Under the pieces are notes generated by a model, which did not search any database, was not told the origin of the DNA, and saw only the letters and a list, made by a program, of their open reading frames with translations. A stretch of 64,000 nucleotides of DNA. Source: Mobula hypostoma. Its lineage: Eukaryota. The translations under genes were made by a program, and so were the position numbers. Of the stretch, positions 15,634 to 48,495 are shown piece by piece (position 1 is the first letter of the stretch; every line of letters starts with the position of its first letter). Location of the stretch: NCBI RefSeq assembly GCF_963921235.1, contig NC_086107.1, forward strand, positions 113,524,001 to 113,588,000. Direction: 5' to 3'.

Positions 15634-18600
15634 GTCTAAAGAAACACACGAAAAAATGCTGGAGGAACTCAGCAGGTCAGGCAGCATCTTTGGAGAGGAA
15701 TAAACTGTTGATATTTCAGCTGAGACCCTTCATCAGCTCCTGACCTGTTGAGTTCCTCCAGCATTTTGTGGGTGCTTCTCTGGATTCCCAGCATCTGCAG
15801 AAGCGCTTGTGTCTGTCTGTCTGTCTCTGTCTATCTATCTATCTATCCATCCATCCGTCTGTCTGTCTGTCTTCATGTCTATATGCCTGCCTGTCTGTTT
15901 ATCTAAACACAAAATACTTCATCCTGACGAAGGGTTCTGGCCTGAAACGTCGACCGATCTTTTCCACGGATGCTGCCCGACCTGCTGAGTTCCTCCAGCG
16001 TGTTGTGAGTGTTGTCTGTTTATCTATCTATCCAGCTAAAGGAGCATACACAAAATGGTGGAGGGACTGAGCAGGTCAGGCAGGATCTATGGAGAGAACT
16101 AAGGAGTCGACATTTTACCTGAGACCCTTCATCAGGACTGACCTGCTGAGTACATCCCGTGTTCTTTGCATGTTCCTCTTTCTCTGCATCTGCATCTGCA
16201 GAATCTCGCATCTGTCTATCCATCTATCTATCTTTATACCTGCCTGCCAGTCTGTCTATCTATCCAAAGGGACACATAAAATGCTGGAGGAACTCAGCAG
16301 GTCAGGCAGCATCTATGGGGAGTGTCTGCAGCATTTTCTGATTTTACTTCAGATCTTTGGCATCACCCCCACCATCGACGTTGGGCGCCCAGAGGAGGCA
16401 CTCTACCCCAGATGCCCAGATACTCCTGGTCGAGGACTGAGCAAAGGCATCTGGAGAAGGATCCCCTTCCAACAGAGTACGAGGGCACTGCGCTACGTGA
16501 ATGCCAGTAGGAGCACACCAGCTCAGCAACGACGTGCTAGATCAGTTGTCAGACACATCCTACTCCAGTCCTGGGACAGTCTGTGCATCCCACACCTCAG
16601 ACCTGCACGTGTTTGTACACGTCTTTGTGTGAGGGTGTGTGTGTGAGTGTGAGTGAGTGTGAGTGTGAGTGAGTGTGTACAGGTGCACCTAATAATCAAC
16701 GATTAATCAATTGTAAGTGTCTGATGTGTTGCAGTAACAGTGCAGGACAGGACATAAATGATGCTATAAGTTAAAAAAAAATTAACAGTATATGAGAGGA
16801 ATAACATAAACATCTGATAGGTCTTGAGCCTGTAGCTGAGGACCAACTGTAACCTCTACCTTCATTAGAAACACATCTACGAATTATACCCACGCAGTTA
16901 TTAATGACCCACACCGACAAGCAAGCAAGCTTCAGTGGCTGTCAGCTCGGCATCTGACTCTCCAGCTACACCTCTGCGACACGGCAAGCAGCCTTCAGAA
17001 ATGCAGCCCGTCTTAAGCAAACAAAAGGAGAAATGCATAGTCACCTCCTGGAACTCGTCAGCGGACCCAGCAGCGAGGCGTGTGACAGGAGGCAGAGGAT
17101 GAACTGAGTACTGCCTGAGACCTGAGGCAACTCAGACAGAAGCCTCACAGGATGTCAGGCAGAGAGCGCATAACCTCAGTCTGTGGTGTCTCTCAGAGAA
17201 GCCACCTCCCGTATGACAGAGATGTGTAGTAAAAGCATTGTGGATGGAGTGGCTAAAAATCATTTGTAGGTGGTACTGCGCTGATCAGGAAGGTGAAAGG
17301 TAGCATTTCCTTTTGACAGAACACACACTAACAAATGGAGGAACTCAGCAGGTCAGGCAATGTCTATGGGGGAGACTAAACAGTCGATGGGCTGAAAAGG
17401 AAAGAGGCAGAAGCCAGTATAACAAGATAGGCTTCTTCTCCCCTTCCTCTCCAGTCCTTATGAGGACTGTGTTGCTATCATACGGTATACAGGGTGATAT
17501 TCTCTCTCCACAGAAGCTGCCAGAACAACTGAGTATTTCCAGCAATTTGTTAGATTCACAGCATCTGTTAGATCTTCATCATAGGCACACAGAACCTGTT
17601 AGAAGGACACAAGAAATAGGAGCGGGTGTTGGCCATCTTGCCCGTTGAGCCTGGTCCATCATTCAATAAGATCATGGCTGATCAGGGCATGTACCTGCTT
17701 TTTCCTATAATCCATAAATCCCCCTGCTATGTAAAAACCTAACTGTGTCTTAAATATAATAATGAGTTACTTCTCCTCAACCATCAGGCTCTTGAACAAA
17801 AGGGATAATTACACCCACTCGCCCATCATTGAAGTGTTTCCACAACCAATGATCTCACTTTAAGGACACTTTATCTCATTATCTCATATTCTCGTTATTT
17901 ATTGCTATTTATTTATATTTGCATTTGCACAGTTTGTTGTCTTCTGCACTCTGGTTGATCTTTCATTGATCCTGTTATAGTTACTATTCCATAGATCTGC
18001 TGAGTATGCCCACAGGAAAATGAAACTCGGGGTTGTATGTGGTGACATATGTGTACCTTGGTAATAAAATGCACTTTGAACTTTTGAAATATATCTGATC
18101 AGGCAGCCTCTACCTTTTCCTGGGCAGAGAATTCCACAGTTTAACTATTCTCTGGAAAAATATCCTTCTCATTTCCATCCTAAATCTATTCCCCCAAATC
18201 CTGAGGCTGTGTCCCCTAATTTCGTCTCACCAATCAGAAAAAAAACAACCTTGCTGCCTCCATTCTCTTCCATAATTTTATACATTTCTATAAGATCCAC
18301 TCTCATTTTTCATCTCCCGCGTTAGGAACATCAAAAAAGTGATGGCACAATTAGCGTAATGCTAATACGGTGCCATTGACCAGGGAGCGACTCAATAGAA
18401 ACCCCGGGGACAAATATTTTTTACACACTATGGGTGGTGTCAATGTGCAATGAGCTGCCAGAGGAAGTGGTTGAGGTAGGTACAATAACAACTTATAAAA
18501 GACAGCTGGACAGAGACGTATGTCGGAAAGGTTTACAAGAAGGGTTCCCAACCTTTTTTGTGCCATGGACCAATGCCAGTAAGCAAGGGATCCAGGTTGG

Positions 18601-19250
18601 GAACCCCTGACTTGGAAGGTTATGGGCCAAATTTTGGCAAGTTGAGTCATAGTGAAGTACAGCACAGAATCAGGCCCTTTGGCCCATCTAATCCATGCCT
18701 AAACCATTTAAACTTCCTATTCCCATTAACCTGCACTGAGACCATAGCCCTCCATATCCCCACAATCCAAGTCTCTATCCAAACTTCTCTTAAATGTTGA
18801 AAACGAGTTTGAATGCACCATTTGTGTTGGCATCTCATTCCACAGTATCATGACCCTTTGGGTGAAGAAGTTTTCCCTATGTTCCCCTCAAATTTCTCAC
18901 CTTTCACCCTTAACTCATGACCTCTGGTTGTAGCCCCACCCAAACTCAATGGGAAAAGCCTGCTTGAAGTTTAGCCAAACTATACCCCTCATAATTTTGT
19001 ATACCTCTATCAGAATTCCCCTCAATCTTCTACATTCCAAGGAATACAGTCCTAACCTATTCAATCTTACCTTATAACTCAGGTCCTCCAGATCCAGCAA
19101 CATCCTTGTGAATTTTCTCTGTACTCTTTCAATCTTGTTTACATCTTTCCTGTAGGTAGGTGACCAAACCTGCACACAAGAATCCAAATGAGGCCTCACC
19201 AATGTCTTATACAACTTCAATATAAGATCCCATCTCCTGTACACAATAAA

Positions 19251-19477
19251 CAACACACATCAAAGTTGTTGGTGAACACAGCAGGCCAGGCAGCATCTCT
19301 AGGAAGAGGTGCAGTCGACGTTTCAGGCCGAGACCCTTCGACTAGTCCTGACGAAGTGTCTCGGCCTGAAACGTCGACTGTACCTCTTCCTACAGATGCT
19401 GCCTGGCCTGCTGTGTTCACCAGCAACTTTGATGTGTGTTGCTTGAATTTCCAGCATCTGCAGAATTCCTGTTGTTT
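19251..19477. mobile_element. Head-to-head (palindromic) Penelope-terminus element inside a CR1
   Basis: About 90-bp inverted arms (caacacacatcaaagttg...caactttgatgtgtgttg) with hammerhead motifs at the centre. A similar element lies at 48117-48365. Confidence 0.75.
19343..19380 (+). ncRNA. Hammerhead ribozyme motif at the centre of a palindromic Penelope-derived element
   Basis: UAGUC-CUGACGA-AGUGUCUCGGCCU-GAAA-CG-UC-GACUG; core intact, stem II imperfect. Confidence 0.55.
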
Positions 19478-35593: not shown

Positions 35594-36869
35594 CTATTTA
35601 ATTAAGGTTGCACAGTTGACTGTGTGATCAGGAATACGAGGGAGCTCTGACAGGGTTGACAGCATCTGCTGGGGTTGATGGGATCTGCTGGGGTTGATGA
35701 GGTGACACTTTCCTCCGGAAGTCCCAACATCCGTTGGCACGTTTCTGGTTTGTGGGAGATGGTGGGAAGTTGACTTTTGTGATTCCATTGGTCTTGGAAG
35801 GAAGCAATAATCTCCGATTTGTTGGAAGTGAATGGGTTTGGCTCCTTGCTGGTAAAGAATGACCTCTGGGGTCTCACTGTTCTCCGTGTCGGTGAGAGGG
35901 GGCTGCCCTTGCTCCTTGCCCAGCAGCTTCTGACAGTCCATTTGGTGCTTGGGCAAGGAATGTCCTTCTGGAGAGTGGCTGATATCCATAGTTTGAGTCG
36001 AAGGGTGGTACCCCAGCCCCAGGTGAGAATCAGCCAGGAGGCTTTGGACTTTGAGCTCGGTGGCTGTGGGGAGTGTGGGGGCCATTTTCACGTGACTCTC
36101 TTCCCCCGGAGGACTCAGCACGTAGCCACTACAAGTTGCTGGCCAGGGTGCGGCCGTGGGATGGTCCTGTGAGGCCAGGCTTGCGTCCTGGGTGCTTTTA
36201 CCCTCCCACGTTGAATCCTTGCACTCTGGCCCATGACTGGACGAGGTGACCTGCAGGCTGGCCGCGCCTGAAACTGGCCGGGAGACGCCCGTGCCTTTCA
36301 CCTGAAGGTCACTGGCGGCAGCGTCCAGCACAGGCGCGCGGGCAGAGTCGGCGGGCGAGGAAAACGTGACGTAGCTGGAACCGGAGTCGTGCGGCGGCTG
36401 GACTGGTTTCTCACCGGACAGTGCCCCCGCGTCCGTGTGGAGATAATAACCTGGCGCCTTTGACACCGCGGGAGGATTCAGGACGTAAGCATTGGAAGGC
36501 ACAGACGGGGTCGGCTTGGCACCACTCTGATCTGTTGCTGCTGCCCCTTCCGAGGGGAGCTTCACGTAGCCGGGAGCGTCCGGCCCTCGCCTGAAATAGT
36601 TCGCATTTTTGCTGGTCGCTGTCTTTATTTCCGTAAGAACGGTCAGGAAGGAAGAAATATCTTGACAATTGAACAAATAGGGGCCATTGTAGTTTGCTGG
36701 CTCACTCTGTGACACCTGGGGCTCAGGGTAGTCTGCTCCAGTAGTCAAAGATGTTCCCGTCTCTGGTGATAAACCCCGGTACCCTTCCTCTTGCTTGCCG
36801 CTCCGGCTTATCACGGGGGAAGAAGAATGGTCCTGTTTCTCCTCCTTCGCGGGGTATTCAGCTTTTATC
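35594..36869 (-). CDS. CSF2RB: CSF2RB-like last coding exon, about 424 aa cytoplasmic tail
   Basis: Acceptor attgttctgcag, phase 2, inside ORF 35594..37045. Carries beta-c hallmark motifs NGPYL, GYVKLP and QQIGDYCFLP. Confidence 0.95.
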
Positions 36870-37954
36870 CTGCAGAACAATAGGGTAGAAAACTTAGTAA
36901 ATCTTTGCCACAAGTTGCCAATAATTCTGATATCTACAATTTTGTCTCTCCTGCTCGGTAACGTTATTGCAGATTGTTGGTGAGGACGCATTGTGTTCAG
37001 ATTTGATCTCTCTGCTGTAGGGAAGATGCCACCAAGCTGGAACAAGAGTTCAGAGGAGATTTTTACAAGGATGTTGTCAGGCCCAGGGGGACTGAGTTAT
37101 GGACAAAGGCTGAGCATATTTGGACTTTTTGTGCTGGAGCCTGGGAGAATAAGGGTGATCTAATGGAGGTATAATAAGACCACAAAGGGGGCAAAGCTAG
37201 GCTGAACGCACACAGTCTTTTTCTCAGGGTTGGAGAATCAAGAACTAGACTCTGTGGCCACTTTATTGGTTACACCGGTACACCAGCTCGTTAATGCAAA
37301 TATTTAATCAGCCAATCATGTGGCAGCAACTCAATGCATAAAAACATGCAGGCTTGGTCAAGAGGTTCAGTTGTTGTTCAAATCAAGCATCAGAATGGGG
37401 AAGAAATATGACTTTGACTGTGGGATGATTGTTGGTGCCAGATGAGGTGGTTTGAGTATCTCAGAAACTGCTGATCTCCTGGGATTTTCACACACAACAG
37501 TCTCTAGAGTTCACAGAGAATGGTGCGAGAAACAAAAATAACAGCCAGTGAGCGGCAGTTCTGTGGGTGAAAATGCCTTGTTAATGAGAGAGGTCAGAGG
37601 AGAATGGCCAGAGTGGTTCAAGCTGACAGGAAGGTGACAGTAACTCAAATAACCACACGTTACAACAGTGGTGGGCAGAAGAGCATCTCTGAATGCACAA
37701 CACATCAAACCTTGAAGTGGATGGGCTACAGCAGCAGAAGACCAGGAACATACACTCAGTGGCCACTTTATTAGGCCCAGGACGTACCTTTGAGTGTAGG
37801 CTGAGGACGGGGGTGGGGGGGGGGTCGGGTGGCAAATTTAATAGAAACCTGAGGGACACTTTTATCTCCTAGGGAGTGGTCATTACATGGAATGAACTTC
37901 CAGAAGTGTTTGAGACAGGTACATTAACACCATTTAAAAGGTACTTGGACAGGT

Positions 37955-38225: not shown

Positions 38226-38446
38226 GACAGACCACTGGCCAGGTACATAGACAGGAAAGGTAGAGAGCTCAGGTTCCCAATCCTTTACTTAATGCTATTG
38301 GCCCAGGGTACAAAAAAGTTTGGGAACCCCTGGAAGTACATTTTTCGAAAATTTTCCCTTTAGTGGAGCTCTGGTACAAAGTTTAAAACAACATGGCGGG
38401 CGTTGTCTGCCCGCTACACGGAACCTGGAGTGAATCAGGGACCTAC

Positions 38447-38559
38447 CTTGGGATAACCTGAGTAGAGACAGTGGTCGATTCCGCGGCCACCAGTTTGCAG
38501 ATGCTGCCTTCTTCCAAAGTCACCGGCTCTATGGCTGCCGGAGGTCTCAATGGGCTTGG
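38447..38559 (-). CDS. CSF2RB: CSF2RB-like penultimate exon (PSPLRPPAAIEPVTLEEGSICKLVAAESTTVSTQVIPR)
   Basis: Strong acceptor cctttccctttcag and donor gtaggt; 113 nt, phase 0 to 2, exactly bridging the Box1 exon and the last exon. Non-repetitive sequence. Confidence 0.8.
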
Positions 38560-38584
38560 CTGAAAGGGAAAGGATTAGACAGAT

Positions 38585-39180
38585 GTTATCAGGCTGGTTA
38601 AAGTTGTCTTACCTGGAGGAGGTAGTGGGGATAAGCTCCCACTACCTATTAAATGCTCCCAATCGTGTGTATCTCAAACAGCCTCTGACAACCGAGTCCA
38701 GCTCCTGGCCTTCACGTGTGGCTTAGAACTGTTTCTACTGACAGGAGAAGGGGCAAAGACGGGTTACTGGTGCCTCAAAGCCAGTCACTTCGGGCAGATA
38801 GGGCTCGTCAGCCGTGGTTGGCAGCTCGTCTGGCAGAAGGAAAACGCTGATCTCAAGCCTCCTTTCCTTTGCGCCTATACCCACTCATGGGGACGGCTTT
38901 GGGAGTAAACATCAAGGAAAAATACAGAGCTAGAATCGCTAAGGCAGCCTTATGTTGAATTCAGTGCTGACCAGTAACTCCTGCAACACTGCTGGTGCCA
39001 AACTGTATCGGTCTCTGCCGTTCCTTTGGGTTCATCAGATACGTGGAGATGGGGAGCTTGCTGCATGGGCGCCAGCTTGCTCTCCGTATCGTACCGCGCT
39101 TGCTTGTGTTTCATCTGGACAGCTAGGATGCAACATCCACGGTCAACCACGGCCAATGGAGGGCCACTAACAGGCTGCAC
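38585..39180 (+). mobile_element. RTE-type 5'-UTR-like repeat; partial minus-strand copy at 57945-58125
   Basis: Two homologous copies; GAAGGAAAAC motif and a structured 5' region. Confidence 0.5.
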
Positions 39181-40201
39181 TGAGGCACAGCTGCGTGTTC
39201 CAAGAAGTGTGGGGTGGGCCGGGCAGGCGACCTCCTGATCAGTATGTTCCTGAACCTGGACACCTTCAAAGTTCAAAGTAAATTTATTATTAAAGTACAT
39301 GTGTGTGTCACCATATCCTGCTCTGAGATTCATTTTCTTGCAGGCATTCACAGTATAACAGAGAGATACAATAGCATCAATGAAAGACTACACACAAATG
39401 AAGGCCGACAAGCAAATAATATGAAATAGAATACAAAAAAGACCAATGGTGGAAGCACAAGACAAACAAATAACTAATACTGAGAACGTGAGTTGTAAAG
39501 TCCTTGAAAGTGAATCTATAGGTAGCGGAATCAGTTCAGTGTTGAGATGAGTGAGTGAAGTTATCCACACCGGTTCAGGAGCCTGATGGTTGAGGGGTGG
39601 TGACTGTTCCTGAATCTGGTGGTGGTGCGGGGTCCTTGATGATGGACGCTGCTTTCCTGCGACAGCGCTCCACGCAGATGTGCTCAACTGGCGGGGAAGC
39701 CTTTGCCGCGATGGAGTGAGCTGTGTCCACCACTCTTTGTTGGCTTGCCCGCTCACGGGTACGGACAGTGGGCAGTTGGGGGCTCTGCCTGAGCCAGCTG
39801 CTTGTCTCTCTCTCCTGGGCATCCATCCATGCTGGCCTGTCCCCGGAGAGGGAGCACACATTGTCCATGGGTACGAAGGGGGCCTTCTGATGGTTGCTAC
39901 AGGTGTACAAATGTATTCAAGGCTGAGTGTTTTATAGTTCGTAAGTCGTGTGAATTGTGTAGTATTTATTTATCTTACTTTCAGATACAGAACAGGCCCT
40001 TTGGCTCTTCGACTCACGCCGCTAGTAACTCACTGATTTAACTCTAACCTAACCACAGGACAATTTAACAATGACCAAATTACCTACTAACTGGTACATC
40101 TCATGACTAAACACAAAATAATCTGCAGATGCTGTTGTCAAAGGAACACTCACAATGCGCTGGAGGAACTCAGCAGGTCAGTCAGCATCAGTTGAAAAGA
40201 T

Positions 40202-40239
40202 TAGTCGACGTTTCGGGCCGAAACCCTTCGTCAGGACTG
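40202..40239 (-). ncRNA. Minimal type-I hammerhead ribozyme motif, sense to the CSF2RB pre-mRNA
   Basis: Minus strand reads CAGUC-CUGACGA-A-GGGU(UUCG)GCCC-GAAA-CG-UC-GACUA; predicted cut between 40207 and 40206. Confidence 0.72.
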
Positions 40240-41212
40240 AAGGAAGAACTTTGGGGAGGGTTTGAAGAATGCTGGTAGTTGAAAAAAACGGTGATTTGAA
40301 AGACAAAGGGATGGGGGAGGGGAAGCATGGAGGTGATTGGCAGGAGAACAATGCGCAGTAGTAGGAGGCGGAACTATGAAGGAGGTGATGTGAAATAGGG
40401 ATAGAGGAAGGGAGGGGGAGGGAATTACTGGAAGTATTATCTTATGACTGTGGGAGGAAACTGGAGAACCCGGAGGAAACCTGTGCATTCCGCGGGGGGG
40501 GGGGAGGGGGGCGGACATACAGACTCCTTGCAGAGGATAACAGATTTGAATTCTGAACCCCTGACACCCCAAGCTTCAGTAGCATCGCAGTAGCATACCA
40601 CTGTCATAATATGATGCTGAAATCACTAAATAAACTTCCTTTGGAAGGAGAAAAGGACTGTGGGCTCCGGGTGTTCGTGGGCTGACAAGTCACCAGGTGA
40701 GTAACCTCTCTGAGATTCCACTCTGTCACTGATAAAGCAGTGGGTGCCCGTACTCAGGTCCAAAACAGTTGGCCTCAGTCACTTCGTCATTAGACGTAGG
40801 CGAGAGAGAGGAAACGGGAGCAGATTATTGACTACAGCAGGAGGAAAACGGAGGTTCACGAGCCGTCCTAATCAGGGGATCAGAGGTGGAGAAGGTTACT
40901 GACTTCGTGTGTGTTATCACTCGGAGGACATGCCCTGGGCCCAGCACATACGGAGAAAGTGCTGCAGCACCTCTACTCCCTCAGAAGTTTGCAGAGATTC
41001 AGCACGACGTTTAAAACTTTGACAAACTTTTACAGGTGTGTAGTGGAGAGCCTATTGACAGGCTGCATCACGGCCTGAATGGAAATGCCTTTGAACAGAA
41101 AATCCTACAAAAAGTAGTGGATACGGCCCGGTCAATCACGGACGAAGCCATCCCCACCACTGAACACATCCACGTGGAGGTGGAGTGTTGTTTTAGGAAA
41201 GTAACTTCCATC

Positions 41213-41775
41213 CCCTCTGTCCGCCACAACAGACAGGATCTCCCGGTAGCCACCCACTTCAACTCTGCTTCCCACTCCCATTCAGATATGTCCATACATG
41301 GCCTCCTCTACTGCCACGATGAGGCTAAACTCAGGTTGGAGGAGCAACACCTCATATACCGTCTAGGTAGTCTCCAGCCCCTTGGTATGAACATAGAGTT
41401 CTCCAACTTCCAGTAATTCCCTTCCCTTCCTTCCCCCTATCCCTATGTCACTCTGCCCCCTCCCCCAGCTGCCTATCACCTTCCTCATGGTTCCGCCTCC
41501 TTCTACTACCCATTGTGTTTTCCCCTATTCCTCCTTCACCTTTCCTGCCTATCCCCTCCCTGCCTCCCCTACCCCACCCCTTTATCTTTCCCCTTACTGG
41601 TTTTTCACCTGGAACCTACCAGCCTTCTCCTTCCCACCCTCCCGCATCTTCTTTATAGGGCCTCTGCCCCTTCCCTCTTCAGTCCTGACGAAGGGTTCCG
41701 GCCCGAAACGTCGACTGATCGTTTCCACGGATGCTGCCCGACCTGCTGAGTTCCCCCAGCGTGTTGTGAGTGTTG
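41213..41775 (+). mobile_element. Penelope-like element 3' fragment (GIY-YIG C-terminus plus terminal repeat) inserted in a Rex/Babar fragment
   Basis: PVATHFNSASHSHSDM...RLEEQHLIYRLGSLQPLGMN; flanking duplication CTTCCATC at 41205-41212 and 41776-41783. Confidence 0.85.
41680..41717 (+). ncRNA. Minimal type-I hammerhead ribozyme motif in a Penelope terminus
   Basis: CAGUC-CUGACGA-A-GGGU(UCCG)GCCC-GAAA-CG-UC-GACUG: 5-bp stem I, intact core, predicted cleavage after 41712. Confidence 0.75.
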
Positions 41776-43269
41776 CTTCCATCATCAGGGACCCTCCCTC
41801 CCCCACCACCACCCAGGACATGCTCTCTTCTCACTGATGCCATCAGGAAGAAGGTAACGGAGCCTCAGGACCCACACCGCCAGGCTCAGGAACAGTTATT
41901 ATCCCTCAACAATCAGGCTCCTGAACCAACGGGGATAACTTCACTCAACTTCACTCAACCATCAACACAGCCTCTGGACTCACTTTCAAGGTCACTTCAT
42001 CTCAAGTTCTCGATATTTATTGCTAATTTATTATTATTAATTCTTACTTTTTCTTTAGTATTTGCACAGTGTGTTGTCTTTTGTGCATTGGTTGTTTGTC
42101 TGTCCTGTAGGGTGCTGTCTTTCACTGATACTATTGCATTTCTTTGTTCTACTGTGAATGCCAGCAAGAAAATGAATCTCAGAGTGACATTTAATTTGAA
42201 CCTTGAACTTTGAGTATGTCCTTGTGGCTCTTTGAGCCACACCACTCCAACAACCCCACAATGCCGATTAACCCAAGCCTAATACAGAGGAGATGTCGGG
42301 GTAAGTTTTTTTATGCAGAGCGTGGTGAGTGCGTGGAATGGGCTGCCGGCAACGGTGGTGGAGGTGGATACGATGGAGTCTTTTAAGAGACTCCTGGATA
42401 GGTACACGGAGCTTAGTAAAATAGAGGGCTACGGGTAACCCTAGGTAATTTCTAAGTAAGTACATGTTCAGCACAGCATTGTGGGCCGAAGGGCCTGTAT
42501 TGTGCTGTAGGTTTTTTTCTATGTTTGTATGTTTCTATGTTTCTAATCACGGGGCAATTTACAAAGAACAATTAATCTACCCGGTGTGTCTAATTTACAA
42601 AGAACAATTAATCTGCCTGGTGTGTCTTTGGACTGTGGGAGGAACCCTGAGCACTTGGGGAAATCCCATACATTTCGAAGGGAGGATGTACGGAGACTCC
42701 CTACAGAGGGTGCGGGATTGAACTCTGATCCCCAGTGCCCCGAGCTGTAACAGTGTTGCGCCAATCACTACGCCACTGTGGCGCCTATTTATATACCGTG
42801 TATGCAACTGTATATCACATATACCATTCTGGTCACTGCTTTATAGGGAGGCTGTCGAGGATTTGGAGAGGGTGCAGAAGAGGTTTACCAGGAAGTTGCC
42901 TGGTTTAGAGAGTATGCGTTATCATGAAACGTTGGACAAACTGGGGGTTGTTTCTCTGGAGCACCGGAGGCTGAGGGGAGATCTGATAGAGGTTTATAAG
43001 ATTATGAGAGGCAAAGTTAGAGTAGACAGGGAGTATCTCTTTCCCAGGTTGGGAAAACCAGAGGGCATGCTTTGATGGTGAGAGGGGGTAATTTTAAAGG
43101 AGATGTGAGAGGCAGGTTTTCTTACAGAGGGTGGCTGGAATACGCTGCCTGGAATGTGGTAGAGGCAGAAACGTTTGGGACTTTAAGCGACGTGGACTTT
43201 CCCTTGGCAGCCTGGAGTCCCCACGCTGGATAAACCATGGGGTCCCCTGGTGCTTTGCAAGACTTTTAC

Positions 43270-43339
43270 CTGTGTTCCCAAGTGGAAGAGTTTACTCTTG
43301 GCAGGGTCCGGAATGCTTTCCAACCACAACCTCTTCTTC
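43270..43339 (-). CDS. CSF2RB: CSF2RB-like Box1 exon (RKKRLWLESIPDPAKSKLFHLGTQ)
   Basis: Acceptor ctttgcggcag and donor gtaaaa; 70 nt, phase 2 to 0. JAK-binding Box1 W-x-x-x-IPDP-x-KS (human WEEKIPNPSKS). Confidence 0.93.
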
Positions 43340-43691
43340 CTGCCGCAAAGAGAACAAAATAAAAACCATGATAAGAAGCTGGCGTTTGCAAGATCCATCA
43401 CTGCAGTCCAAGGAGTTACTGACATCATCACAGACATGGGCTGCTTGGTGCACCTACTCTGTCCTGCTGCTTATAGTCCTAGTGAGCATCTTCCGTGCTT
43501 TGATTGTGTTGTAAGGACTTACTTTTATTCTCTCTCTTCACTTTTGGTACTATTTATGTATTTTATCTTCTGTGTGATGTCTACACCTATAAAGAGTCAC
43601 AGACACAGGCCCTTTGGCCCATCTAGTCTGTGCCGAACTGTTATTCTGCCCAGTCCCTGCTCCTAGACCATTGCCTCCATACCCCTTCTAT

Positions 43692-46993: not shown

Positions 46994-48495
46994 CGGCGGT
47001 CCCCAACCACCGGGCTGCGAGGAAACGATAGGAGTCAGCTGCGCCTTTCCTCGTTCCCCGTCACGCAGTGTTGAGCCATTACGCACACAAGATCTTTACC
47101 CGAGTGTCATCCATGTCATCGCGGGAAGGAGATCAACTCCTCGAGCTTGTGACAACGGGCTGAAAAGTATGTTTGATATAACATCTCTGCCGGCATTCCG
47201 GATCAAAGTCAAGGCTAAATATCCTGAGATAGCCACGAAAGCACTGAAAACGTTGCTTCCATTTCCAACATATCTCGGCAATGAATGTAACGAAAACTAA
47301 ATTGCGGAACAGACTGGACATAAGGAACCCCCTTCGAGTATCGCTGTCTCCCATCACCCCTCGACGGCACCTTGTTGCAGGAAAACAAGCCCAGGGCTCC
47401 CACTGATTCAGCGATATTGGTGTGTTGCAATGATTTTATATGTTAATACAGGGAAAATATGTGCTGTGTGTTTAATATCCAAACATTACTTAAAATGTTA
47501 TGATGCTATTGACTTATAAGTGACGTATATAACCATATAACAATTACAGCACGGAAACAGACCATCTCGGCCCTTCTAGTTATACTCTATTCTTGGCTGG
47601 TGCAACTGTAACGAAACCCAATTTCCCTCGGGATCAATAAAGTATGACTATAGTCCGTGCCCAACGCTACTTCCACCTAGTCCCACTGACCTGCACTCAG
47701 CCCATAAACCTCCATCCCTTTCCTGTCCATATACCTATCCAATTTTTCTTCAAATGATAACATCGAACCTGCTTCTGCCACTTCTACTGGAAGTTCGTTC
47801 AACACTTACTTCCAGCTCCCTGGTCTTCCCCTGATAATTGACTTATCACTATATTCATGCGAGGAAAATATGCGCTGCGTGTTTAATGTTAAATTCGTTA
47901 GATAAACCCTTTTAGAAACGAAATTGAGTGTATTAGCCGTTTATCACCTATATTCCACTCGTGATTAACACCCTCCCCCCGAACAGAATCGCCAAAAACG
48001 ATTTATAGACAAAAATCAGCACGTACACGCATAGCGTTACGCATGCGCACTGGTGCCCGCGCAAGGCTTCATGGCCATTGTAGTCTTATTCCGGGTAACC
48101 ACAACTTATTGGACTGAAACAACAGGAATTCTGCAGATGCTGGAAATTCAAGCAACACACATCAAAGTTGCTGGTGAACGTAGCAGGCCAAGCAGCATCT
48201 CTAGGAAGAGGTGCAGTCGACGTATTTGACTGAGCCGCATCCTTCATCCTGACGAAGGGTTTCAGCCTGAAACGTCGACTGTACCTCTTCCTAGAGACGC
48301 TGCCTGGCCTGCTGCGTTCACCAGTGTTGCTTGAATTTCCAGCATCTGCAGAATTCCTGTTGTTTACGTATTTGACTGCTTCTCTTGTCCGTTAGCAACC
48401 CTACGCGCCCCCCCCCCCCACCGGGGTCAGCCAGTCCGCAAGAATATTGTCAATATTAAACCGGTCCGCAATGCAAAAAAGGTTGGGGACCCCTG
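46994..48495 (+). mobile_element. hAT-Charlie deleted element with nested insertions
   Basis: TIRs CGGCGGTCCCCAACC and GGTTGGGGACCCCTG; perfect 8-bp TSD ACCTAATT; dimerisation-domain remnant KYPEIATKALKTLLPFPT...QAQGSH. Confidence 0.88.

What the first reader, a model, noticed from the sequence alone, without database searches (positions are those of the whole stretch)
40202..40239. Intact hammerhead ribozyme motif in the sense orientation inside a CSF2RB intron
Seen: the minus strand reads AGUC-CUGACGA-A-GGGU(UUCG)GCCC-GAAA-CG-UC/GACU. This is a complete hammerhead core with stem I, a UUCG-capped stem II and a vestigial palindromic stem III (ACGU). It lies in the intron between the Box1 exon and the next exon, so it is transcribed with the receptor. 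Known: Penelope-like elements carry minimal type-I hammerheads that often cleave as dimers, and an extra A after A9 is tolerated in a natural viroid hammerhead. Inference: it could cut the pre-mRNA co-transcriptionally and affect splicing or output of the signalling tail.
Basis: partly seen in the sequence, partly recalled or inferred. Interest (0 to 1): 0.8.

Follow-up and report, generated by a model that had tools for sequence, protein, structure and literature searches.

The report
Retroelement hammerhead copy in receptor intron
The hammerhead ribozyme motif is really there, but it is one of many thousands of copies left by a Penelope-like jumping gene, a kind already described, and nothing suggests that it controls the receptor gene it sits in.

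Summary
Window 40203-40238 (minus strand) reads exactly as described: a complete hammerhead core, 4-bp helices I and II, an extra A after A9 and a palindromic ACGU in place of helix III. It lies in sense orientation in a 4,710-nt GT-AG intron (38560-43269) of an elasmobranch CSF2RB orthologue, between the Box1 exon and the next exon.

It is not gene-specific. It belongs to a 328-nt, 5'-truncated copy (40108-40435) of a Penelope-like retroelement (PLE). The exact 35-mer occurs 1,275 times in the 3.48-Gb genome. A slightly looser 28-mer occurs 57,002 times, equally on both strands. Longer copies carry a reverse transcriptase plus GIY-YIG endonuclease ORF ending about 300 nt upstream of the motif.

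All its features match the published "min-HHR" of PLEs (Cervera & De la Peña 2014). Those are inactive as monomers and only weakly active as dimers.

Here no second intact sense copy lies in the part of the gene that the window holds. The predicted fold pairs the catalytic core. An antisense copy in the same intron can form a duplex of -173 kcal/mol. Spliced contigs show that the intron is removed normally.

Verdict: an ordinary, young retroelement fragment. Regulation of the receptor is unsupported.

The parts
40203..40238 (-). Minimal type-I hammerhead motif (min-HHR). Helix I is 40238-40235 with 40206-40203. Core CUGACGA is 40234-40228. The extra A is 40227. Helix II GGGU/GCCC with loop UUCG is 40226-40215. 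GAAA is 40214-40211. The palindromic CG is 40210-40209. U16.1 is 40208 and C17 is 40207. The predicted cut lies between 40207 and 40206.
40108..40435 (-). A 5'-truncated copy of a Penelope-like retroelement. It holds only the non-coding 3' region: about 200 nt of pyrimidine-rich sequence, the hammerhead, a 3' module of about 70 nt and a terminal tail of about 40 nt. It is in sense orientation to the host gene.
   Evidence: 40 scored places of 2,145 candidates match query positions 6-333 at 95-97% identity. Searches give the module alignment and the 3' ends.
41216..41778 (+). A second copy of the same element, antisense to the host gene. It keeps the last 66 codons of the endonuclease ORF (to 41416) and an intact hammerhead at 41685-41712.
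   Evidence: 56 of 66 residues identical to the C-terminus of the element ORF of locus L011.
40141..40242 (.). One arm of an inverted repeat with 41677-41778 (102 nt, 89% complementary, 1,434 nt apart). In the pre-mRNA the hammerhead can pair with the antisense copy, which is transcribed first.
   Evidence: pair I1; predicted duplex energy -173.2 kcal/mol.
38560..43269 (-). Host intron of 4,710 nt with GT..AG ends. It lies between the Box1 exon (43270-43341) and the next exon (38446-38559) of the CSF2RB orthologue.
   Evidence: joint 38559|43270 in one contig each of X2, X3 and X4.

Best explanation
The motif is the hammerhead of a Penelope-like retroelement (PLE), Neptune-like by its CX4CXXC linker. 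It was carried into this intron as part of a 328-nt, 5'-truncated insertion (40108-40435, minus strand). In the element's own life cycle such minimal hammerheads are thought to act as domain-swapped dimers in tandem or multimeric element transcripts, possibly helped by the element's protein. That part comes from the literature and was not shown here. At this locus the copy is a single, young, neutral passenger. As a monomer it has no helix III, it has no partner hammerhead in cis, and it is expected to be spliced out and degraded with the intron. No effect on CSF2RB output is expected.
For: Shown here:
- Copy number. The pattern CTGANGAAGGGTYTCGGCCYGAAACGTC has 28,458 forward and 28,544 reverse matches in the genome, with 0/0 in the control. 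The exact 35-mer has 649+626 matches, control 0. A profile of the roughly 115-nt module hit 39 times in 200 kb of arbitrarily placed loci and 26 times in the window.
- Retroelement anatomy in the first 20 pattern loci on contig C1. Upstream extents vary from 0 to more than 1,200 nt. The 3' ends lie at about +97 or about +137 from the hammerhead start, and 10 of 22 copies carry the extra tail of about 40 nt. An inverted partner abuts the copy in 5 of 20 loci.
- Coding region. In 7 of 7 long C1 copies examined, chosen for upstream extension of at least 465 nt, an ORF with CKRNKCYTC...GVIYCVRCSRCGLLYIGETRRRLGDRFAEH ends 299-333 nt before the hammerhead. Pfam gives GIY-YIG at E 1.9e-4 and 6.1e-4 and RVT_1 at E 2.4e-5 on a 745-aa ORF. 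All three scores lie just under Pfam's curated cut-offs.
- Youth. This copy is 95-97% identical to its 40 best-scoring relatives.
- Neutral decay. Of 65 profile hits, 32 have an ungapped hammerhead segment and 14 of those are intact. Losses are concentrated at CpG sites: identity 0.66 at CpG columns against 0.90 at non-CpG columns.
- Folding. Helices I and II alone score -7.9 kcal/mol. The minimum-energy fold scores -11.9 and pairs G5-G8 with C15.2-C17 at probability 0.98 or higher. The double hammerhead scores -14.7 against a dimer minimum of -28.7. The z-score is -0.89.
- Splicing. Contigs join 38559 to 43270.

From papers:
[quoted passage not shown] Monomers showed no cleavage and dimers showed low cleavage.
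- PMC8557442 (passages) describes 5' truncation, inverted 5'-truncated partners and a 30-40-bp tail.
- PMC2995048 (passages) reports that a slow intronic hammerhead did not impair splicing in vivo.
Against: No cleavage assay or end-mapping data exist for this RNA. Thermodynamic folding does not model hammerhead tertiary contacts. The hammerhead of an Anolis Poseidon element cleaved only when the element's protein was added (PMC11167929, passages), so inactivity of monomers in protein-free assays is not decisive in vivo. Non-CpG hammerhead columns are more conserved than the rest of the module (0.90 against 0.815). Both intronic copies keep all 5 CpGs in a genome window with CpG observed/expected 0.41. 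I attribute this to selection on source elements and to youth, but constraint at this locus is not formally excluded. Covariation gave no support for the fold in either direction. No Rfam family matched. The reverse transcriptase and GIY-YIG Pfam scores are below the gathering cut-offs.
Confidence: 0.88

Rival explanations
1. The sense-oriented hammerhead cleaves the nascent CSF2RB pre-mRNA in the intron. It would act as a monomer helped by cellular or element-encoded proteins, or as a dimer with another element transcript in trans. That would lower or tune production of mRNA encoding the signalling tail.
For: The catalytic core and helices I and II are intact and in sense orientation. Intronic ribozymes can tune expression: the Cpeb3 ribozyme is an example (PMC10919898, abstract and passages). 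A PLE hammerhead was activated by the element's protein in vitro (PMC11167929, passages). Element-derived sequence is abundant among the laid contigs, although depth there cannot be interpreted.
Against: There are 1,275 identical 35-mers on both strands, so the motif is not specific to this gene. There is no helix III. No second intact sense copy lies in the roughly 28 kb of the gene inside the window: the only other minus-strand hit, 48262-48151, has a broken core. The competing fold pairs the core. An antisense copy lies 1.4 kb upstream in the same intron. Published monomers did not cleave and dimers cleaved only weakly (PMC4209133). Slow intronic hammerheads did not impair splicing (PMC2995048, passages). 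The cut site is only 1,647 nt from the 3' splice site. Spliced contigs exist. The Anolis study found no RNA-seq reads ending at its hammerhead site (PMC11167929, passages).
Confidence: 0.04
2. The relevant feature is not the ribozyme but the inverted pair of element copies (40108-40435 minus, 41216-41778 plus). In the intron RNA they would form a long double-stranded stem. Such a stem could be edited, could slow or alter splicing locally, or could feed small-RNA pathways.
For: The arms are 102 nt long and 89% complementary, and further arms flank them. The predicted duplex energy is -173.2 kcal/mol.
Against: Both arms lie in one intron, so no exon is looped out. Contigs show the normal exon-exon joint. 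The differences listed mix many repeat copies and give no evidence of editing. Inverted element pairs are common in this genome, so this is again generic.
Confidence: 0.08
3. The motif only resembles a hammerhead. It would be a conserved 3'-UTR element of this retroelement family with another role, for instance recognition by the reverse transcriptase, and it would never cleave.
For: No Rfam hammerhead model matches even at E up to 10. There is no covariation above shuffles: 151 of 500 shuffles reach the observed share of paired cells, and only 1 cell changes on both sides. The predicted fold is a plain hairpin. PLE clades without hammerheads proliferate well, and hammerhead mutants did not affect insertion in vitro (PMC8557442 and PMC11167929, passages).
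Against: Every invariant core position is present together with four independent, non-obligatory signatures of published PLE hammerheads: the extra nucleotide after A9, G10.1-C11.1, palindromic 15.2-16.2, and a location in the terminal non-coding region of a PLE (PMC4209133). Core mutants abolished cleavage and the compensatory double mutant partly restored it in a vertebrate PLE hammerhead (PMC11167929, passages). The core is kept between subfamilies whose flanks differ.
Confidence: 0.07

Closest known systems
Minimal hammerheads (min-HHR) in the terminal repeats of metazoan Penelope-like elements (Cervera & De la Peña 2014, PMC4209133; Xena, Poseidon and Neptune elements of fishes)
   Same: A type-I motif with a full catalytic core. 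Helix I is short (4-6 bp). There is an unpaired nucleotide between A9 and 10.1, and a G10.1-C11.1 pair. Helix III is absent and replaced by a palindrome (A-CG-U). The motif lies in the non-coding end of an element that encodes reverse transcriptase plus GIY-YIG endonuclease. Most copies are single, truncated and dispersed, some in nearby opposite-strand pairs, and they form large consensus families.
   Different: The host is an elasmobranch and the sequence family is different. Helix II is 4 bp here, against the 7-8 bp reported for Schistosoma. Copy number is much higher: 57,002 strict matches against about 4,000 in coelacanth and about 9,000 in Xenopus tropicalis in that paper. Cleavage was not tested here.
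Non-LTR retrozymes of animals (tandem type-I hammerhead repeats that give circular RNAs; PMC7229834, search listing and abstract only; bioRxiv 10.64898/2026.07.22.740005, Results part 1 of 2 read)
   Same: A type-I hammerhead with a weak palindromic helix III, related to PLE terminal regions, and found in non-mammalian vertebrates including a cartilaginous fish.
   Different: Retrozymes are head-to-tail tandem arrays. This locus holds a single copy with an inverted neighbour. Genome-wide only 30+28 same-strand pairs lie at a spacing of 278-308 nt.
Conserved intronic ribozymes of vertebrate genes: HH9/HH10 hammerheads of amniotes (De la Peña & García-Robles 2010, seen only as a reference entry; content recalled) and the Cpeb3 HDV-like ribozyme (PMC10919898)
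   Same: A self-cleaving motif in sense orientation inside an intron of a protein-coding gene. This is the proposed precedent for cleavage that competes with splicing.
   Different: Those are single-locus motifs conserved across species and active as monomers. This one is a young multi-copy repeat without helix III. No Rfam family matched, and Rfam's hammerhead families (recalled to include HH9 and HH10) are among those searched.
Viroid hammerhead with an extra nucleotide after A9 (De la Peña & Flores 2001, as cited in PMC4209133)
   Same: An extra unpaired nucleotide between A9 and G10.1.
   Different: That one is a type-III hammerhead of a plant viroid with a proper helix III. It shares only this one feature.

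Membership tests
Hammerhead ribozyme (general) | Invariant core: C3 U4 G5 A6 N7 G8 A9, G12 A13 A14, A15.1/U16.1, H17 | tested here: met
   CUGACGA ... GAAA ... U C. Coordinates are given under parts.
Hammerhead ribozyme (general) | Helices I and II flank the core | tested here: met
   AGUC/GACU and GGGU/GCCC, 4 bp each. Helix I is 6 bp in the sister variant at 41681-41716.
Hammerhead ribozyme (general) | A closed helix III within one molecule | tested here: not met
   A15.1 and U16.1 enclose only 2 nt (CG). Only an intermolecular ACGU/ACGU helix is possible.
Hammerhead ribozyme (general) | Match to a curated Rfam hammerhead covariance model | tested here: not met
   No match at gathering score in the window. 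No match at E up to 10 in 39900-40540.
Hammerhead ribozyme (general) | Covariation supports helices I and II | tested here: inconclusive
   on 27 copies: 88.5% of cells paired, a value reached by 151 of 500 shuffles, and 1 change on both sides. The copies are recent relatives decaying neutrally.
Hammerhead ribozyme (general) | Site-specific self-cleavage after H17 | not testable with these tools
   The laid runs are contigs, which cannot show RNA ends.
min-HHR of Penelope-like elements | [quoted passage not shown] | tested here: met
   A at 40227. The feature is listed in PMC4209133.
min-HHR of Penelope-like elements | G10.1-C11.1 pair | tested here: met
   G 40226 pairs with C 40215. The commonest genomic variant has G-U there (GC 15, GU 9).
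min-HHR of Penelope-like elements | Palindromic 15.2-16.2, with or without loop 3 | tested here: met
   A-CG-U at 40211-40208.
min-HHR of Penelope-like elements | Lies in the terminal non-coding region of an element encoding reverse transcriptase plus GIY-YIG endonuclease | tested here: met
   Family level. Locally, the sister copy follows the last 66 codons of the endonuclease ORF. The Pfam scores are just under the curated cut-offs. This copy is itself truncated just before the ORF's stop codon.
min-HHR of Penelope-like elements | PLE insertion hallmarks: variable 5' truncation, inverted 5'-truncated partner, 30-40-bp tail at one end | tested here: met
   The hallmarks are as described in PMC8557442 (passages).
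Gene-specific conserved intronic ribozyme (HH9/HH10 or Cpeb3 type) | Single-locus motif conserved in orthologous introns | tested here: not met
   The motif is multi-copy: 1,275 identical 35-mers. The copy is 95-97% identical to dispersed relatives. Orthologous introns of other species could not be examined.
Non-LTR retrozyme | Head-to-tail tandem repeats, each unit carrying a hammerhead | tested here: not met
   No adjacent same-strand copy lies at this locus. Only 58 unit-spaced pairs exist genome-wide.

The most novel reading that the evidence does not exclude
The genome holds tens of thousands of intact PLE hammerheads, presumably about half of the intronic ones in sense orientation. A vertebrate PLE protein has been reported to switch on its element's hammerhead. 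Bursts of PLE expression could therefore cause protein-assisted or trans-dimer cleavage of many host pre-mRNAs at once, this CSF2RB intron included. That would couple retroelement activity to host gene output.
Probability: 0.04. Interest if true: 0.6.

Novelty: new member of a known kind. Interest (0 to 1): 0.12.

Why it matters
For the receptor gene it matters little, because the motif is best read as a passenger in an intron. The wider observation is modestly useful. This elasmobranch genome carries an exceptionally large and young family of Penelope-like-element hammerheads: 57,002 strict matches, and by extrapolation from a 200-kb sample several hundred thousand copies of the 3' module. 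Elements of this family also have long open reading frames. The species would therefore be a good natural system for an open question: whether such minimal hammerheads cleave in vivo, and whether intact sense copies in introns are selected against.

Tried and rejected
- Rfam. No match in the whole window at gathering score or around the motif at E up to 10.
- RNA evidence. The look-up of sequencing runs listed no RNA holder. The four runs laid are contigs, so they cannot show RNA starts or ends, and no place where molecules begin or end was listed. This says nothing for or against cleavage at 40207/40206. Depth over the repeat bins sums many copies and was not interpreted.
- Covariation on 27 genomic copies was uninformative.
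- Other hammerhead families. A generic min-hammerhead descriptor run over all held sequence found no second family to compare helices with.
- Gene identity by solved structures gave only weak class-I cytokine receptor hits, E 0.011 and weaker, and nothing for the tail. Pfam found nothing on the tail or the Box1 ORF. Identity was settled.
- Discrete element idea. I considered that the constant match limits 6-333 show a discrete 328-nt non-autonomous element. I rejected this, because those limits are imposed by the query copy's own ends, and longer copies would give the same limits.
- Single inverted duplication idea. I considered that the two intronic copies and the outer inverted arms (I2, I3, I5) are one inverted duplication. 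The outer arms are LINE-like fragments arranged differently on the two sides, so independent insertions are as likely. This is left open.
- Lünse et al. 2017 (PMC5785218) is not held. Its content is known to me only through the review PMC6765202.
- The search of earlier findings found nothing for this genome or this sequence.
- The supplements of PMC4209133 (alignments, accession lists) were not opened. They may list cartilaginous-fish examples.

Full report
**The observation.** The minus strand of the window at 40238->40203 reads AGTC-CTGACGA-A-GGGTTTCGGCCC-GAAA-CG-T-C-GACT. It holds every invariant hammerhead position (C3-A9, G12-A14, A15.1, U16.1, C17). Helices I and II have 4 bp each. One extra A follows A9. 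Helix III is missing; in its place A15.1-C-G-U16.1 forms the palindrome ACGU. The predicted cut lies between 40207 and 40206.

**The gene context.** The 500-aa minus-strand ORF at 35594-37096 finds 'cytokine receptor common subunit beta' of elasmobranchs. The best hit has E 1.6e-151 and 68% identity to a stingray protein. tblastn with that protein places eight exon pieces on the minus strand, including the WSDWS exon (57028-56846), the Box1 exon (43341-43255) and the tail (36871-35657). Contigs from 3 of 4 runs laid, all from one study, join 38559 directly to 43270. The skipped 4,710 nt start with CT and end with AC on the + strand, which is GT..AG on the minus strand. The motif thus lies in sense orientation in the intron 38560-43269. 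It is 3,063 nt from the 5' splice site and 1,647 nt from the 3' splice site. The intron is removed normally in at least some transcripts.

**It is a repeat.**
- The 28-mer, with up to 3 mismatches, occurs 6 times in the window on both strands, against 0.00 expected from 100 shuffles.
- In the window's own 3.48-Gb genome, CTGANGAAGGGTYTCGGCCYGAAACGTC has 28,458 forward and 28,544 reverse matches. The backwards-read control has none.
- The exact 35-mer of this copy, allowing Y in loop 2, occurs 649+626 times, control 0.
- A profile of the roughly 115-nt module around the motif hit 39 times in 200 kb of arbitrarily placed loci and 26 times in the 64-kb window. By extrapolation this means several hundred thousand module copies genome-wide.
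- A generic min-hammerhead descriptor run over 325,858 held bases found 18 hits, all of this family, and none in the reversed control. Of those 18, 13 lie in loci that had been chosen because they held the pattern.

**What the repeat is.** I took the first 20 pattern loci on contig C1, which hold 22 hammerheads.
- The copies share sequence for a variable distance upstream, from 0 to more than 1,200 nt.
- Downstream they end at one of two points, about +97 or about +137 from the hammerhead start. Ten of the 22 carry the extra 40 nt.
- In 5 of the 20 loci an inverted copy abuts the 5' side.
- All 7 long copies examined have an ORF that ends 299-333 nt before the hammerhead. These 7 were chosen for upstream extension of at least 465 nt. 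The ORF contains ...YPCKRNKCYTCP...GVIYCVRCSRCGLLYIGETRRRLGDRFAEH...LEEQHLIFRLGSLQPDGMNIDFSNF.
- Pfam reports GIY-YIG at E 1.9e-4 (22.1 bits, cut-off 22.6) and at E 6.1e-4. On a 745-aa open frame lying head-to-head with a truncated copy it reports RVT_1 at E 2.4e-5 (24.6 bits, cut-off 29.6). These scores are slightly under the curated thresholds.
- Taken together, the features are those of Penelope-like elements as described by Craig et al. 2021 (PMC8557442, passages): reverse transcriptase followed by a C-terminal GIY-YIG endonuclease, 5' truncation, inverted 5'-truncated partners, and a 30-40-bp tail at one end.
- The CX4CXXC linker before the endonuclease suggests the Neptune-type group. 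This is a sequence observation; no phylogeny was made.

**This copy.** Window 40100-40440 (minus strand) matched 40 scored places, of 2,145 candidates, at 95-97% identity over query positions 6-333. The insertion therefore spans 40108-40435. It holds only the non-coding 3' region, and it belongs to a young subfamily. Two of its features are traits of a sub-subfamily rather than changes that arose at this locus:
- The UUUCGG loop occurs in about 15 of the first 100 listed matches.
- GACUAAUC, which gives a 4-bp helix I, occurs in 40 of the first 100 listed matches. The other 60 have GACUGAUC, which gives a 6-bp helix I.

A second copy of the same subfamily lies 1.4 kb away on the other strand (41216-41778). 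It keeps the last 66 codons of the endonuclease ORF, with 56 of 66 residues identical to a C1 copy. Its hammerhead at 41685-41712 is intact.

**Comparison with what is known.** Cervera & De la Peña 2014 (PMC4209133; I read parts 1-2 of 4 of the text) defined 'min-HHRs' in the terminal repeats of all Penelope-like elements they examined.
- These include the Xena, Poseidon and Neptune elements of fishes, with about 4,000 copies in coelacanth and about 9,000 in Xenopus tropicalis.
[quoted passage not shown] All three are present here.
- They also report single dispersed copies, nearby copies on opposite strands, no detectable cleavage by single motifs, and low cleavage by dimers or trimers.
- The review PMC6765202 (passages) gives the same picture and cites Lünse et al. 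2017, which I could not read.
- A 2024 study of an Anolis Poseidon element (PMC11167929, passages) found cleavage only in the presence of the element's protein, no effect of hammerhead mutants on insertion in vitro, and no RNA-seq reads ending at the cleavage site.

**Can this copy act on its host transcript?**
- As a monomer it has no helix III.
- A dimer needs a second copy on the same strand. Within the part of the gene that the window holds, the only other minus-strand hit (48262-48151) has a broken core.
- Genome-wide, same-strand pairs at unit spacing are rare: 58.
- Predicted energies do not favour the active fold. Helices I and II alone score -7.9 kcal/mol. The minimum-energy fold scores -11.9 and pairs G5-A6-C7-G8 with C15.2-G16.2-U16.1-C17 at probabilities of 0.98 or higher. 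The domain-swapped double hammerhead scores -14.7 against a dimer minimum of -28.7. The 50-nt region is no more stable than its shuffles, z -0.89.
- The antisense copy is transcribed first. It can pair with the hammerhead region over 102 nt at 89% complementarity, with predicted energy -173 kcal/mol.
- Published work summarised in PMC2995048 (passages) reports that a slow hammerhead placed in an intron did not reduce splicing in vivo, whereas a fast HDV ribozyme did.
- None of this is a cleavage assay, and nearest-neighbour folding ignores tertiary contacts.

**Selection.** Among the 65 profile hits, 32 have an ungapped 36-nt hammerhead segment. Of these, 14 keep the core and at least 3 bp in each helix, and 9 also keep the CG palindrome. 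Decay is concentrated at CpG sites: column identity is 0.66 there against 0.90 at other hammerhead columns. This fits neutral decay in a CpG-depleted genome (CpG observed/expected 0.41 in the window). Non-CpG hammerhead columns are more uniform than the rest of the module (0.90 against 0.815). I read this as conservation of the motif among source elements whose flanks differ. Pair counts on 27 copies show no covariation beyond shuffles.

**Verdict.** The motif is a real, intact-looking minimal hammerhead of the Penelope-like-element kind, in the place and orientation stated. It is a young retroelement fragment among tens of thousands of the same kind. The idea that it regulates the receptor has no support here, and several lines of evidence count against it. 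The kind is already described. What is new is only its occurrence and very high copy number in this elasmobranch genome. Other windows of this scan, from other genomes, gave similar Penelope-type hammerheads that were also judged a known kind. I did not use those as evidence.

Noticed in passing
window 19249-19443 and 48151-48331: Head-to-head (foldback) pairs of the same 3' module, with the hammerhead region at the centre of the palindrome. This matches the inverted 5'-truncated partner described for Penelope-like elements. In both places the core on the inner (minus-strand) arm is not intact.
   Followed up: partly
window 39321-39916 (-), 40832-41210 (+), 41790-42184 (+): LINE-like coding fragments with the C-terminal motifs ...VVDTA.SI...RKAASIIKDP.... 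The plus-strand one seems to be split by the Penelope-like copy at 41216-41778. One fragment gives a weak Pfam hit to ALKBH8_N (E 0.0049, below cut-off).
   Followed up: partly
window 38446-38634: The tblastn match to the stingray protein runs to 38634, but spliced contigs put the exon boundary at 38559. The protein match over-extends into the intron.
   Followed up: yes
window 42556-42627: A tandem duplication of a 36-nt unit, 94% identical, inside the same intron.
   Followed up: no
window about 15800-15923; locus L013 around 1460-1630: Copies of the element abut microsatellite-like runs: (TCTG/TCTA)n in the window and CA/TACA-rich sequence in L013. This fits the reported insertion bias of Penelope-like elements toward microsatellites (PMC8557442 passages).
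   Followed up: no
window, whole: The module is denser in this window (26 hits in 64 kb) than in the arbitrarily placed sample (39 hits in 200 kb).
   Followed up: no
locus L021 2792-5029 (-): A 745-aa frame without stops, containing the reverse-transcriptase region, lies head-to-head with a 5'-truncated copy. This suggests that the family was active recently.
   Followed up: partly
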